NCBI GenBank assembly: GCA_000165345.1
Contig: CM000432.1
Span: forward strand, 32,001 to 96,000
Length of the DNA: 64,000 bases
Direction of reading: 5' to 3'
Under the pieces are notes generated by a model, which did not search any database, was not told the DNA's origin, and saw nothing but the letters and a program-made list of their open reading frames with translations. Positions 929 through 26,979 of the stretch are shown piece by piece (positions within the stretch are counted from its first letter, which is position 1; each line of letters begins with the position of its first letter). The translations under genes were made by a program, and so were the position numbers.

Positions 929-1246
929 TTCAATGTTATTAAGATCCAAAAGAAATATTAAATGATGAGTAGTGGAGAAGCAATAAATGAAAAAATTAAA
1001 GGTTGGTTTATTAAAATAAAAACAAAACAAGGGTTATAATTTATAAAAGTAAACATTACGAACCTCACTCCTTTTATATCAATTCAATTTACCTAAGCTT
1101 TTAGCTGCATTAAATCGACGTGTTTTGATCTACAAAACATCTATCAACAAACAAAAAGAACTTATCTTCTCAAAGCAAAATTGGATATAAAGATTGTTTT
1201 ATTACTTGGGAATTAATAAACTGGAATAATATAAAAATTAATTAAT

Positions 1247-4200
1247 TTAATTTTGGAATAAAAATTTAAGATCATCAGAATTAAGTTTATTTAGAGCATT
1301 ATTAGATGCTCCAACGGTACCGTCAAAAACAAGTTGTTTCTTTTCTTGTAGTTGAAACATTCTTTCTTCAATCGTATCCTTTGTAATAAACCTTAATGCA
1401 GTAACTTTTTTCTTCTGACCGATTCGATGAGCTCTTTGGAATGCTTGTAATTCAACTGCAGGATTCCACCAAGGATCAAGTAGAAAAACGTAATTAGCAA
1501 CCTGTAAGTTAAGACCTTCACCGCCAGCTTTGAGGCTGATTAAGATTATTTTAAGGTCCGGGAATTTATTAAATGAATACAATATGCTATTTCTTTGAAG
1601 AATTGACATTGAGCCAGCAAGCATTACGCATCCAATATTTGCCTTTTTTAAGCGATAGGAAACCAAGTCAAGCATATTTGTGAATTGAGAAAATACGATT
1701 CCCTTTGATTCAGGATCTTCTTGCATCATTTTATTAACTTCTTCTAATAGTGTATCAATTTTTGTAGAGCTTTCGAACCCTTGAGTTTTAATTTGTCGAG
1801 TAATAAATTTATTTCTAACACAAGAAAGAATGTCTTCATTTTCTTGCTTTGGTTCTTGTTTAAGATTTTCTTTGCTAACATCTATACCTAATTGTTTAGC
1901 CATTTCCATTCTTTCAAGCTCTCTTTCAATTTGCTCTTGCATTTGTTCAGACTCCATATTGTCATTTGTATCATTTTCTTCGTCATTCATTTCATCATAT
2001 CCGGATTTAATCTTTTTATTTTTCTTATTTAAATTCGAAACTTTATTAAAATCAATTGTAAGAGGTACATAGCAAACAGGGCATCCAAGAACTCCTCTCA
2101 TTGTTTGTTCACCTTCTGTATCAAAATCAGTAATTATTTCGTCTTCCTGGGGAGCTTGTTCAATGTATTCTTTGATACATTTAATATGGAATCCATGTTT
2201 GCATTTACTTGTAACTCTTTGATCAATTGTAACATTATCCATGCAAATATAACATAAGTCTTCATTACTGTCAGCTCTGCTTTTTGACGGTATAACTTTT
2301 TTTGAGTCAAAATTTGTTTTTTCTTCTTCTGCATCGTTTAAACATTCAACATCCTTTTCTTCATCATTATCTTCTTCTTTGTATTCTTTTTTATATTCTA
2401 GATCTTTTTTGTGGTTGAATTTTCCATAAACAATTAGATATGGATGATCTACAGCTTGTCTAAGACGACTAATCAAATCAAAGACGTGAGCATAATTGTG
2501 CAAAACTGTTCCTTGATTAACATAAGTATCAAACTGAACTTTAGATCTTTGATATAAAGAAGTATAGAAATCTTTTTCTGGGGCAGAAAGCTCATTATTT
2601 ATAACTTTAATTTCTAATGGTGGAAGCCTAACGTCTTCTTGTCGTTGAACTTTTGTTCTTCTTAGTAAAACTTTATCTAATACCTCCTTTTTAAGCCTTC
2701 TTAAGGCTTCAGAGCCTTCTCCAGAGAAACCATATCTTTTGATTGGATTAATAATTAATTTGTTAAAATATGAATAATGACATGATCTTGCATGACCACA
2801 AAACGAACAATATTTTAAATGTGTAACATAGTTTAATTGCCTACAATCGCAATCTACCTTATTGCAAAAGTTATAAGCATAGGGATGAAATCCAATAAAT
2901 CTAACAAGAGAGTAGAGTTCGCCAACCCTATTTTGAAGAGGGGTACCTGTAAGACACCATTTTGTTCCTCTAGACTTTAAAGCAAAAATTGCCTTTGCAG
3001 TAGAAGTTGTTCTTGCCTTAATTCTGTGCGCTTCATCCAAAATAATGCGATTCCAGCTTCTTCCAAAAATCGCTGAATATTCTCTTAACTTTTGGATAAT
3101 TTCATCCTCTTCATTATCATCTTCTTCATCATCAATTTCATCAATTTCTTCTACTACTTTATATTCATCGTCATCATCATCATCATTCTGCTTTTTTTTT
3201 TGGTTCTTAGCATTTTTTCTACGTTTTATATTCAAGTCTTGGGAGTCATCAGATTCGTCATATTCGGAATATTCATCAATTGATTCTTCTTCGGCATTAT
3301 AATCGTCCTCGAATTCATCTTCGTACTTCTTCTTTTTTCTACTATTCTTAGAATTATTACTCTTCGTATTTGCTTTTTTATTGCTATTATGAGTAGACTT
3401 TGAAGTTTTTTTAGTATTTTGATTCAAATGATTCCCTTCATTAGAATTATTGTCAGGGTTATCAAGTCCCAATATATTTGACAGTTTATCCACGAGTTCA
3501 GCCTTTCGAAGAGATTTACAGTTATCATATAATTCAACCAAGGAATCCAATATTTGTCCATCAATATTGAATCTAGTAGATAAATACTCCTTGCTATTTT
3601 CAATACTTGAAAGGAATTCCTTTATAGATTTTACTGTCTCTGATTTTAAAGGCAGTTTAATTCCTCCCCATTCCAATAAAGAAAGTAAATTTTCTTCAGG
3701 TTCATCCTTTACAATTTCAGTCTTTTGAATTTTTTCTTCAGTATCGTTTTCCTTTAACGAATTACTAGAGTCTTCCTTTTTAACTAATTGTTGACTTTTT
3801 CTTCTGGAAGTAAACCAAGGCAAGGCTGAAGACAATGATTCATCGTCAAGTAAGTCTGCTTTAGCAAGTATTTCTCTATAAACATTGCTAATTGTTGGTA
3901 AACTACGAGCAATATCTTCCAACTGTTTTGCCTTATCAACACCTTCCTCTAATCCAATCTTTAAAGTTCTCATAGCTTTTTTTAAACCTTCATTTTTTCT
4001 TTCAGTAAGTGCTTGTTTAGCTGTTCTCATGGAGTTTGGACCACAAAAGTATCTAAGGTGAATCTTCAAAGTCCTTTTTAAGAATGATCTATCACAGTAA
4101 GGACATTTAGATTTGAATGCTGATGCAATCTTTCTATATTCAGCTTCCAATGTAGGGTAGGTGGTAATTACTACGTCAGCATCATCAATGTCAACTCCAC

Positions 4201-5555: not shown

Positions 5556-6959
5556 TTAAAATATCATTCCTTGGTATGGAGTAAATGAGATAGAAGTGCT
5601 GCTTCCCAATTTAGAATCGCTTCCAGATAGTGTTTCAATCTTACTACTAGAACTAGAGCTTTTTAGGCTTCCAACTTGAAGACCTCTAATTCTTCTACCA
5701 CCTTCACCGGCGCTCAATAGTCCCAAACCAATGGTTTTCCCATCAACAGTGTATTCTTCCTCTTCCTCTCCGAATTTCATTCTATTCATCTCTTTTTTAA
5801 TTTTAGTTTGTTTGAATTTTTCTTTAATTTTTCGAATTCTTTTTCCACCTCTCCTAGATTTTGGAAAATCTTTTGGAATAGGAAGTGGCTTTTTCATAGG
5901 TTTTTGAGGAGGTTCCTGAGCTTTTTCTAAAATATTAAGTATATAGTTTCGATAGTTAACTCCATGATCTGGACTTTTATCTGTACTAGAGAAGTCAATT
6001 CTTGCACATAATCCACATTTTAAAGATACAAGTCTGATTGCCTTCTTCTTATATTTATCTTGAATGTTTCTTACAATATCGCTTTGAGAAATAATGCTTT
6101 GAAGTAATTCTAACCTTACTGGACCAGTAGAAAAGTGACCATTTTTTTTATTGTTTTTTAAGCTTCCAAGTACCATAATGTTTTGTGATGGCATTTCCGC
6201 TAAATTTTTAAGTCCTCCTGAGACACATAAAAGATTAGCAGCAATTTCGGGGCCAATTAATGCAGACAGATTTGGAGTAATAGCCTCTATTTGAAATTGT
6301 AGAAATTCTAGTATTTTTGATTTACTTTCGTTGATTTGATTAACAAAATCAATACATTTTAAAATTGATTCTTTCTTTTCTAAAGTTGGAATGTTTCTTT
6401 TGCTAGTACTTGAAGAAATGGTAATTGTCATAATTGTAGAGTTTGGTAAAATATCATTAAGCTTCACATCTTCAAAGTTTTCATGAGTAATTATCCTTTT
6501 CACAACTTCTAAATAGTCTATCTTGTTTATTATTATACTTGCAAGCTCACCAAAGTGATCCTTATATAAAGCTTTAACACATTCATATTTTTCTGAAACT
6601 TTTGAATCAATTATTCCTACTATATCTATAATTTCTTGAAATGTACCATAAATTTCATTACCAAAATCTTTTAATTGGTAATTTGAATTCATAACATTAG
6701 TTGATGAATCGATCATTTTTCCAAATAATCGGTCATTTAAATTACCGATTTTACTAATAATTTCATCATCACTATATTTCCCATCTTCGGAAATCTGGCC
6801 TTTATTGTTAATATTGCTAGATGCTGAATAATCAAGATCTTCCAAATCTTTCAACAGTAATTCCTGCAATGAAGACTGATATGATTGAAGATAGACGAGA
6901 AGAAAAATACATAAATTAATCAATAATGTGGGATTAAGAACATGAAATTAACTTACCAT
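5556..6959 (-). CDS. PRP31: U4/U6 snRNP protein Prp31 (Nop domain). Two exons on the minus strand: exon 1 is 6957..6959 (ATG only) and exon 2 is 5556..6875, with an 81-nt intron at 6876..6956
   Basis: The long ORF carries a Nop domain (LSALIGPEIAANLLCVSGGLKNLAEMPSQNIMVLG) and a basic Prp31-type C-terminus. The ORF's own N-terminus (MINLCIFLLVYLQSY) reads like translated non-coding sequence. On the minus strand, ATG is followed directly by GTAAGT at 6956..6951. A pyrimidine tract and AG at 6877..6876 open exon 2 in frame. The spliced N-terminus M-SSLQELLLKDLEDLD matches human PRPF31 MSLADELLADLEEA. Confidence 0.72.
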
Positions 6960-7053
6960 TATTAATTTATTTTTATTCAAAATCAGTTCATTTTTAGAAA
7001 AAGAAACGAAGAAAAAATATAAAAAACAAAAAATATAAATTAAATATCAAGTG

Positions 7054-7061
7054 TTGGCGCC
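7054..7061. promoter_or_regulatory. E2F-like GC box TTGGCGCC, ~100 bp upstream of the Prp31 ATG
   Basis: A GC hexamer isolated in ~85% AT intergenic DNA. It belongs to a family of at least 16 such boxes, all intergenic. Confidence 0.4.
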
Positions 7062-8091: not shown

Positions 8092-8415
8092 ATGAGCACA
8101 AATCAAAATATTGATATTGAAAAGTGGCAAAAAGAGTTTTTTTCAGTTGAAAAGTCTTCACTTCCTCAAGAAGACACTAGAATAAATTCTTCTATAAAGG
8201 ATGAAAGAAGTTTAATAGAACAAAAAATATCTGAAGAGATACAAACTTTAGAGCTTATGAATCCTGATGCATTTAATAGAATTCCTATGATATATGAAAA
8301 GAAGGATCCAAGTTATATTGAAGAAAATTGGAGAGAATATAGAGGGCATCTTACACAAGATTATTTAAAAAAGTCAAAACAAGCAAATAGAAAGTTAAAA
8401 AAACAAAATTTGTAA
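8092..8415 (+). CDS. Small (107 aa) charged hypothetical protein
   Basis: ATG at 8092. K/E-rich with a non-repetitive composition. It sits in a defined slot between flanking genes. No domain recognised. Confidence 0.4.
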   Translation: MSTNQNIDIEKWQKEFFSVEKSSLPQEDTRINSSIKDERSLIEQKISEEIQTLELMNPDAFNRIPMIYEKKDPSYIEENWREYRGHLTQDYLKKSKQANRKLKKQNL

Positions 8416-26326: not shown

Positions 26327-26979
26327 ATGGGAGATAACAAAAGAATGACTCTGGTAAGTTTAACAACTATGCTTATTGGCCTTAATTAATTTTTTATTAT
26401 AAATATTTAAAGGAACTCAGAGGCCTCCAAGTATTTACAGACGAGCTTGAAGAAGATAAGCAGGTTGGAATAAAGCTGATTGGTAATAGAAACGACAACT
26501 TTTTGGGTATTATTAGAGGGCCTATAGGAACACCATATGAAGGTGGTATATTCCAACTTGATATTATTGTACCAAAAGAATATCCATACGAGCCTCCAAA
26601 AGTTAAATTCATCACAAGAATTTGGCATCCGAATATTTCTAGTCAAACAGGAGCTATTTGCTTGGATATTTTAAAAGATGCCTGGAGCCCTGCTTTAACT
26701 CTTAGAACAGTAATGCTTTCTATACAAGCATTACTCTCTTCTCCTGAACCAAATGATCCTCAAGATGCATTGGTCGCATCTCTATACAAAAGTGATTACC
26801 AAGAATATATTGAAACGGCCAAAAGTTGGACACAAATGTATGCAAAGCCAACATCAAAGGAAGAAAGGATTAAGAGATTTCTTGATATGGGATTCAACCG
26901 TGAATCTATAATAACAGCACTAGAAAGAAATAATTGGGATGAAAATCTCGCTCTAAATGAGCTATTATTTGAAAACTAA
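26327..26979 (+). CDS. Ubiquitin-conjugating enzyme E2 with a C-terminal UBA domain (UBE2K/E2-25K-like). Two exons: 26327..26353 and 26413..26979
   Basis: UBC core HPNISSQTGAICLDILKDAWSPALTLRTV and the UBA-like tail EERIKRFLDMGFNRESIITALERNNWDENLALNELL match UBE2K closely. The ORF has no ATG of its own. ATGGGAGATAACAAAAGAATGACTCTG followed by GTAAGT at 26354 and TTTAAAG at 26406..26412 splices in frame, giving a 59-nt intron. Confidence 0.75.

What the first reader, a model, noticed from the sequence alone, without database searches (positions are those of the whole stretch)
6876..6959. Prp31 gene has a start-codon-only first exon (ATG|GTAAGT) followed by an 81-nt intron
The long ORF for Prp31 begins with a nonsensical hydrophobic peptide (MINLCIFLLVYLQSY). 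On the minus strand an ATG at 6959..6957 is immediately followed by GTAAGT. A pyrimidine tract and AG at 6877..6876 re-enter the ORF in frame, giving M-SSLQELLLKDLEDLD. This matches the conserved Prp31 N-terminus (human MSLADELLADLEE). A 3-nt coding exon is easily missed by gene finders. A spliceosomal protein carrying such an intron is a possible autoregulatory set-up.
Basis: partly seen in the sequence, partly recalled or inferred. Interest (0 to 1): 0.5.

Follow-up and report, generated by a model that had tools for sequence, protein, structure and literature searches.

The report
Known start-codon intron in Cryptosporidium Prp31
The Cryptosporidium parvum gene for the splicing protein Prp31 does have a first coding exon that is only ATG, followed by an ordinary 81-base intron. 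Current GenBank gene models already contain it, and nothing points to self-regulation.

Summary
On the minus strand, ATG (6959..6957) is followed by GTAAGT. An 81-nt intron (6956..6876) ends in CAG, and splicing gives M-SSLQELLLKDLEDLD... (440 aa).

The window is C. parvum. This exact 440-aa protein is already deposited (QOY41903.1, WKS77206.1, KAL5368903.1), and equivalent models exist for six other Cryptosporidium species.

I found ATG|GTA(A/G)GT at the same position in all eight Cryptosporidium species examined. Intron lengths are 70-84 nt, and four of the eight are not multiples of three. The acceptor AG is invariant, and a coding-type substitution pattern begins right after it. Theileria equi has the same start-codon intron (38 nt), and Babesia ovis has a 36-nt candidate. 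A chytrid lacks it.

The claim that such an exon is easily missed holds: at least five deposited models miss or alter it.

The autoregulation idea has no support. The intron interior diverges about as fast as the neighbouring intergenic DNA. No RNA structure is shared between species, and the donor is the consensus hexamer. Start-codon introns are a described class.

Verdict: real, ordinary and already annotated. No transcript data could be reached.

The parts
6957..6959 (-). Start codon ATG, the whole coding part of exon 1. Context is aaattaata ATG g.
   Evidence: It is the only in-frame ATG between the upstream in-frame stop at 7049..7047 and the donor. It is conserved in 8 Cryptosporidium species.
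6951..6956 (-). 5' splice site GTAAGT
   Evidence: It is GTAAGT in 6 of 8 Cryptosporidium species and GTAGGT in C. canis and C. felis. The UBC-gene intron in the same window has the same hexamer.
6876..6956 (-). Phase-0 spliceosomal intron, 81 nt, 26% G+C. It carries an in-frame TAA at 6948..6950.
   Evidence: The gene span in annotated C. parvum genomes is 1404 nt, which equals 441 codons plus 81 nt. Orthologous introns are 79, 75, 84, 70, 79, 78 and 74 nt.
6887..6907 (-). Pyrimidine-rich tract ahead of the acceptor (tttttcttctcgtctatcttc)
   Evidence: Read. Pyrimidines make up 75% of the 32 nt before the terminal CAG. The branch point is not assignable; several YTRAY matches exist.
6876..6877 (-). 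3' splice site AG (atatcAG|TCT)
   Evidence: The AG is invariant in the 8-species alignment, and the coding pattern starts immediately after it.
5556..6875 (-). Exon 2: codons 2-440 of Prp31 plus the stop codon. It holds a Nop domain and a Prp31_C domain.
   Evidence: One search gives the ORF. One search gives Pfam Nop at 8.2e-53 and Prp31_C at 2.4e-26. One search matches human and yeast Prp31 chains at 2e-53 and 8.6e-34.
6864..6866 (-). Second in-frame CAG, 12 nt downstream of the acceptor. It is a possible minor alternative acceptor and would delete SSLQ.
   Evidence: This CAG is CAA in C. meleagridis, C. canis, C. felis, C. bovis and C. ryanae, and AGT in C. serpentis. It is the codon for Gln5, not a conserved splice site.

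Best explanation
This is a constitutive, canonical GT-AG spliceosomal intron in phase 0 between codons 1 and 2 of the Cryptosporidium parvum PRP31 gene, a so-called start-codon intron. Exon 1 is the short 5' leader plus ATG. Splicing removes 81 nt (6956..6876) and joins ATG to TCT, giving the 440-aa U4/U6 snRNP protein Prp31 with the conserved N-terminus MSSLQELLLKDLEDLD.

Without splicing, the ATG opens only M-V-S-stop, so full-length protein needs the splice.

The intron position is old. It is shared by all Cryptosporidium species examined and by the piroplasm Theileria equi, and a matching 36-nt candidate is present in Babesia ovis.

Its survival in an intron-poor genome is most simply explained by the known 5' bias of retained introns. 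A specific regulatory role is not needed to explain it.

Shown here: the sequence signals, the conservation, and identity to deposited models. Inferred: actual removal in mRNA, and the reason for retention.
For: - Sequence signals are at the stated coordinates.
- The spliced 440-aa product is exactly GenBank QOY41903.1, WKS77206.1 and KAL5368903.1 of C. parvum. The same architecture is annotated in C. hominis, C. tyzzeri, C. meleagridis, C. ubiquitum, C. canis, C. bovis and C. serpentis.
- The window matches annotated C. parvum chromosomes with 5 mismatches in 16,959 nt, and the 1404-nt gene span is identical.
- ATG|GTA(A/G)GT and the acceptor AG are conserved in 8 species. Intron lengths are 81, 79, 75, 84, 70, 79, 78 and 74 nt, and four are not multiples of 3.
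- Right after the acceptor, codon positions 1+2 are more conserved than position 3. An example is 0.88 against 0.38 versus C. felis.
- The downstream Met55 is absent in C. ubiquitum and C. canis.
- N-termini align across Cryptosporidium, Theileria, Babesia and a chytrid.
- T. equi has ATG|GTAAGA...TTTAG|GGC with a 38-nt intron. B. ovis has a candidate ATG|GTATGG...ATATAG|GCT of 36 nt.
- Size and G+C are typical of C. parvum introns, which average 84-99 nt and 22% G+C (PMC4637869).
- Start-codon introns are a described class (PMC1626468).
Against: No transcript evidence could be reached with these tools. A scan of JGI metagenome contigs for the spliced junction found nothing, which is uninformative.

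The deposited models could share one annotation lineage and so are not fully independent. The raw-DNA conservation in species whose own annotation missed the exon (C. felis, C. ryanae) is independent of that.

A second in-frame CAG 12 nt downstream could be used in part of the C. parvum transcripts.
Confidence: 0.93

Rival explanations
1. The intron is an autoregulatory device. Prp31 or tri-snRNP levels would control removal of the intron in its own pre-mRNA. The unspliced RNA, which reads MVS-stop, would be the off state.
For: The intron position is kept in all 8 Cryptosporidium species and in Theileria, although the genus has lost most introns. The unspliced RNA cannot make full-length protein. 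The C. parvum intron folds into a hairpin that includes the 5' splice site, with z = -2.2.
Against: - The intron interior is no more conserved than the upstream intergenic DNA. Identity is 0.62 against 0.62 versus C. ubiquitum and 0.49 against 0.54 versus C. canis.
- The hairpin is not shared. Z-scores in the other seven species run from -2.6 to +1.6, and five are positive.
- The leader plus intron region is unremarkable, z = -1.15.
- The donor is the consensus GTAAGT, not a weak, regulatable site.
- Simple dependence of Prp31 synthesis on splicing is positive feedback, which any intron-bearing spliceosomal gene has. It is not homeostatic control (inference).
- The other intron in this window, in an unrelated UBC gene, is also 5'-proximal with the same donor.
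Confidence: 0.05
2. There is no splice. Translation starts at the first in-frame ATG inside the long ORF (codon 55, 6716..6714) and gives a 386-aa protein, as in C. hominis models PPS93133.1 and PPA65047.1.
For: Such models are deposited. The Nop domain starts after residue 88, so the truncated protein would keep both Pfam domains.
Against: The 53 codons upstream of Met55 are conserved as protein in all species. They carry the Prp31 N-terminal motif also found in Theileria, Babesia and a chytrid. Met55 is not conserved: C. ubiquitum has Ile there, and the C. canis sequence at that point has no Met. The ATG|GTAAGT...AG frame is conserved.
Confidence: 0.02
3. The same donor is used, but the acceptor is the CAG at 6866..6864. 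That makes a 93-nt intron, also in frame, and gives M-ELLLKDLEDLD (436 aa). It could be the main product or a minor isoform.
For: The site is in frame and has a good ttgCAG|G context 12 nt after the first acceptor.
Against: The site is CAA in five of the eight species and AGT in C. serpentis, while the upstream AG is invariant. The four skipped codons (S/T-S-L-Q) are conserved as protein, with synonymous changes such as TCA/TCG, TTG/TTA and CAG/CAA. The 436-aa sequence is not in the 15-billion-protein collection.
Confidence: 0.03

Closest known systems
Annotated C. parvum PRP31 gene model (GenBank QOY41903.1, WKS77206.1, KAL5368903.1) and its annotated orthologues in C. hominis, C. tyzzeri, C. 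meleagridis, C. ubiquitum, C. canis, C. bovis and C. serpentis
   Same: The 440-aa product is identical, and the gene span of 1404 nt equals the CDS plus an 81-nt intron.
   Different: Nothing differs: it is the same feature. Older or automatic models differ by missing the ATG exon. These are EAK87734.1, PPS93133.1, and the C. felis and C. ryanae models.
Start-codon introns: phase-0 introns between codons 1 and 2 (Nielsen & Wernersson 2006, PMC1626468)
   Same: The intron is in phase 0 directly after ATG, in a conserved protein without a signal peptide, and its position is conserved between distant species.
   Different: That class is enriched in short, lysine-rich proteins, notably ribosomal proteins. 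Prp31 is a 440-aa snRNP protein. The paper covered vertebrates, arthropods, fungi and plants, not Apicomplexa.
Intron-based autoregulation of yeast ribosomal protein genes. RPS9 is covered by PMC3315480, which I saw by title and abstract only. RPL30 binding its own pre-mRNA near the 5' splice site is from my own knowledge.
   Same: A very short first coding exon is followed by a 5'-proximal intron in a gene whose product takes part in RNA processing.
   Different: Those cases depend on a conserved RNA structure or on non-consensus signals in the transcript. Here no conserved structure or sequence was found in the intron, and the donor is consensus.

Membership tests
U2-type GT-AG spliceosomal intron | GT at the 5' end within a donor consensus, and AG at the 3' end | tested here: met
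   GTAAGT is at 6956..6951 and the intron ends in cAG, with the AG at 6877..6876. Both are conserved in 8 species.
U2-type GT-AG spliceosomal intron | Pyrimidine tract and branch-point sequence upstream of the acceptor | tested here: inconclusive
   Pyrimidines make up 75% of the last 32 nt before the CAG. Several YTRAY matches lie 40-72 nt from the 3' splice site, and none can be singled out in this AT-rich sequence.
U2-type GT-AG spliceosomal intron | The segment is non-coding: length not constrained to multiples of 3, in-frame stops, and near-neutral divergence | tested here: met
   Lengths are 81, 79, 75, 84, 70, 79, 78 and 74 nt. There is an in-frame TAA at 6950..6948. Interior identity is about equal to intergenic identity.
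U2-type GT-AG spliceosomal intron | The segment is removed from the mature mRNA | not testable with these tools
   No RNA-seq or cDNA data could be reached. The junction scan of metagenome contigs was empty. Published re-annotations of C. parvum used RNA-seq (PMC4637869; bioRxiv 10.1101/2021.01.29.428682), but I could not see evidence for this particular gene.
Start-codon intron (PMC1626468) | Phase-0 intron exactly between codon 1 (ATG) and codon 2 | tested here: met
   ATG|GTAAGT...CAG|TCT.
Start-codon intron (PMC1626468) | The protein has no signal peptide | tested here: met
   The spliced N-terminus MSSLQELLLKDLEDLD is acidic rather than hydrophobic. This was judged by inspection; no predictor was run.
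Prp31 (U4/U6 snRNP protein) | Nop domain followed by a Prp31 C-terminal domain, and best similarity to Prp31 rather than Nop56/58 | tested here: met
   Pfam gives Nop at 8.2e-53 and Prp31_C at 2.4e-26. PDB human Prp31 scores 2e-53 and yeast Prp31 8.6e-34, against Nop58 at 4e-17.
Splicing-autoregulated gene | A conserved RNA element or structure in the regulated intron or leader | tested here: not met
   The intron interior shows no conservation above the intergenic level. Fold z-scores are inconsistent across the 8 species.
Splicing-autoregulated gene | Splicing efficiency responds to the level of the gene's own product | not testable with these tools
   This needs an experiment.

The most novel reading that the evidence does not exclude
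The PRP31 start-codon intron is an ancient intron of the apicomplexan ancestor. It would have been kept through massive intron loss because it couples Prp31 output to spliceosome capacity, or gives intron-dependent expression. It might act together with the conserved upstream AAAAATGA/uATG element in the very short leader.
Probability: 0.08. Interest if true: 0.4.

Novelty: already known. Interest (0 to 1): 0.08.

Why it matters
It matters mainly as annotation quality control. A 3-nt coding exon is a recurrent failure for gene callers in intron-poor parasites. Here it led several deposited models to truncate, misread or wrongly extend the N-terminus of an essential splicing factor. These are C. 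parvum Iowa II, two C. hominis assemblies, C. felis, C. ryanae and probably Babesia ovis.

The shared position of the intron in Cryptosporidium and Theileria, with a matching candidate in Babesia, is a small data point for the view that 5'-most introns are the ones that survive genome reduction. It opens no new biological question.

Tried and rejected
- Direct transcript evidence. An exact-match scan of JGI metagenome contigs for the spliced junction found nothing. The exact 440-aa protein occurs only on three NCBI chromosome-scale contigs, not on any contiguous cDNA-like contig.
- Literature on start-codon-only exons in Cryptosporidium. Four full-text searches gave the re-annotation papers but no statement on this gene or on ATG-only exons. 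The supplement of PMC4637869 does not mention Prp31.
- Conserved RNA structure in the intron or leader. A hairpin over the 5' splice site in C. parvum (z = -2.2) persists only in its close relative C. meleagridis, where it is not significant (z = -0.47). I rejected it.
- A PDB sequence search with the first 54 residues, meant to verify the human N-terminus, gave no hit at E <= 10. The full-length alignment to human Prp31 starts at residue 90.
- Rfam and tRNA scans of the whole window found nothing.
- A de novo scan for other ORF-bridging introns in the window gave only spurious candidates. The UBC intron was found by noticing a missing N-terminus.
- A chytrid Prp31 gene, checked for a wider age of the intron, has no intron after the ATG.

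Full report
**What is at the coordinates**

On the minus strand the sequence reads ...aaattaata ATG GTAAGT taatttcatg...tcttcaatcatatcAG TCT TCA TTG CAG GAA TTA CTG....
- The ATG is at 6959..6957 and GTAAGT at 6956..6951.
- The mechanical ORF (5556..6923) begins at a TTG and reads MINLCIFLLVYLQSYQSSLQ....
- The ATG at 6959 is the only in-frame ATG between the upstream in-frame stop (7049..7047) and the donor.
- Unspliced, it reads M-V-S-stop (TAA 6950..6948).
- The next in-frame ATG is codon 55.
- The 9-mer ATGGTAAGT occurs once in the window, against 0.46 expected. The motif alone is therefore not significant; its placement and conservation are.

**Identity of the gene and the organism**

The exon-2 product has a Nop domain (8.2e-53) and a Prp31_C domain (2.4e-26). 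It matches human and yeast Prp31 chains in tri-snRNP structures (2e-53 and 8.6e-34).

Homologues are Cryptosporidium Prp31 proteins at 98% identity and below. The window differs from annotated C. parvum chromosomes by 5 bases in 16,959, and the 1404-nt gene span is identical. The window is therefore C. parvum.

**The model is already known**

The spliced 440-aa protein is, residue for residue, GenBank QOY41903.1, WKS77206.1 and KAL5368903.1 (C. parvum). The same cluster holds 440-aa models from C. hominis and C. tyzzeri.

In the annotated genomes the gene span minus the CDS is 81 nt in C. parvum. In the other annotated species it is:

| Species | Span minus CDS |
|---|---|
| C. meleagridis | 79 nt |
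| C. ubiquitum | 75 nt |
| C. canis | 84 nt |
| C. bovis | 70 nt |
| C. serpentis | 79 nt |

Published re-annotations of C. parvum and C. hominis used RNA-seq and roughly trebled the intron count (PMC4637869; bioRxiv 10.1101/2021.01.29.428682). I could not see the evidence for this particular gene.

**Independent support from raw DNA**

In all eight Cryptosporidium species examined, the DNA shows ATG|GTAAGT (GTAGGT in C. canis and C. felis). An AG follows 70-84 nt later, and codons for [S/T/A/N]-[S/T]-L-[Q/S]-[E/D]-L-[L/F]-L-x-D-L start right after it.
- Four of the eight intron lengths are not multiples of three, so the segment cannot be coding.
- After the acceptor, codon positions 1+2 are more conserved than position 3.
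- Before the acceptor, identity equals that of the intergenic DNA.
- C. felis and C. ryanae are informative because their own annotations miss or alter the exon, yet the signals are present in their DNA.
- Met55 is not conserved, which argues against the 386-aa downstream-start models.
- The second in-frame CAG (6866..6864) is CAA in five species and AGT in C. serpentis. It is the Gln5 codon, not a conserved acceptor. Minor use in C. parvum cannot be excluded.

**Age of the intron**

- Theileria equi Prp31 starts ATG|GTAAGA...TTTAG|GGC ACT TTG (M|GTLADAFLEDLEDLE) with a 38-nt intron.
- In Babesia ovis the annotated model has a long 5' extension that overlaps a gene on the other strand. The DNA, however, contains ATG|GTATGG...ATATAG|GCT TCC ATA GTG GAC TCG TTT TTG, a 36-nt intron giving M|ASIVDSFLDDLEDLE.
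- A chytrid (Rhizophlyctis rosea) has no intron there.
- N-termini from all these species align with Met1 in register.

The position is thus shared by Cryptosporidium and at least one piroplasm (Theileria equi), with a matching candidate in Babesia ovis. This suggests an intron of the apicomplexan ancestor (inference). Parallel gain is not excluded.

**Is it special or regulatory?**

- The intron is typical of C. parvum in size and composition. It is 81 nt and 26% G+C, against means of 84-99 nt and 22%.
- Its donor is the same consensus hexamer as in the other intron I could identify in the window. That is a 59-nt intron after codon 9 of a UBC+UBA gene (26354..26412). My hand-spliced product for it equals QOY41909.1.
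- The Prp31 intron interior is not conserved beyond the intergenic level.
- Fold z-scores across the eight species are -2.2, -0.5, +1.6, +0.5, +0.1, +0.8, +0.9 and -2.6, with different structures.
- The leader plus intron region has z = -1.15.
- Phase-0 introns directly after the start codon are a described, widespread class (PMC1626468). The 5' bias of surviving introns in intron-poor genomes is established knowledge and is discussed in that paper.
- Dependence of Prp31 synthesis on splicing would be positive feedback, not homeostatic feedback (inference).

I therefore find no support for the autoregulation idea, though only an experiment could exclude it.

**Verdict**

- The structural interpretation is confirmed and already in the databases.
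- The claim that the exon is easily missed is confirmed by several faulty deposited models.
- The autoregulation idea is unsupported.
- Novelty: already known. Interest: low.

Noticed in passing
window 6983..6995 (minus strand); also L001, L003, L004, L012: An AAAAATGA(A/G) motif lies about 32-40 nt upstream of the Prp31 ATG. It is conserved in C. parvum, C. meleagridis, C. ubiquitum, C. canis and C. felis. In C. parvum it contains an out-of-frame uATG (6991..6989) that opens an M-N-stop uORF. It could be a uORF in the leader or a promoter or initiator element. The transcription start is unknown. The 'partial' model WRK32125.1 translates this leader in frame.
   Followed up: partly
window 7056..7061: A palindromic GGCGCC lies about 100 nt upstream of the Prp31 ATG, in the 135-nt gap after the RMP1-like gene. 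C. felis has TTTGGCGCC in the equivalent gap. It resembles the E2F-type motif reported upstream of many Cryptosporidium genes; that comparison is from my memory and was not checked.
   Followed up: no
window 26327..26979 (+), intron 26354..26412: A UBC+UBA ubiquitin-conjugating enzyme gene has a 27-nt first coding exon and a 59-nt GTAAGT...AAAG intron. The hand-spliced 197-aa product equals QOY41909.1. The 2004 Iowa II annotation has a 197-aa model for this gene (EAK87733.1) but missed the ATG-only exon of Prp31.
   Followed up: yes
L010 (Babesia ovis BLIY01000017.1) 1501..2757: The deposited B. ovis Prp31 model (518 aa) has an N-terminal extension encoded across a region that overlaps a gene on the opposite strand. 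A start-codon exon at 2719..2721 plus a 36-nt intron (2722..2757) would restore the conserved N-terminus. This is a probable mis-annotation.
   Followed up: partly
L012 (C. felis) about 1175..1255; L011 (C. ryanae) 1453..1529: The deposited C. felis Prp31 model (354 aa) starts at an internal Met. The C. ryanae model uses a different ATG and a 53-nt intron, dropping NSLQELLLKD. Both genomes carry the conserved ATG|GTA(A/G)GT start-codon intron.
   Followed up: yes
window 6864..6866 (minus strand): An in-frame CAG 12 nt downstream of the acceptor could serve as a minor alternative 3' splice site in C. parvum and C. ubiquitum only.
   Followed up: partly
window 8092..8415 (+): A 107-aa ORF with no Pfam hit lies between the MMS19 and RMP1-like genes. 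It is called as a gene of 106-113 aa at the syntenic position in every Cryptosporidium locus that reaches that position. It is a conserved protein of unknown function.
   Followed up: no
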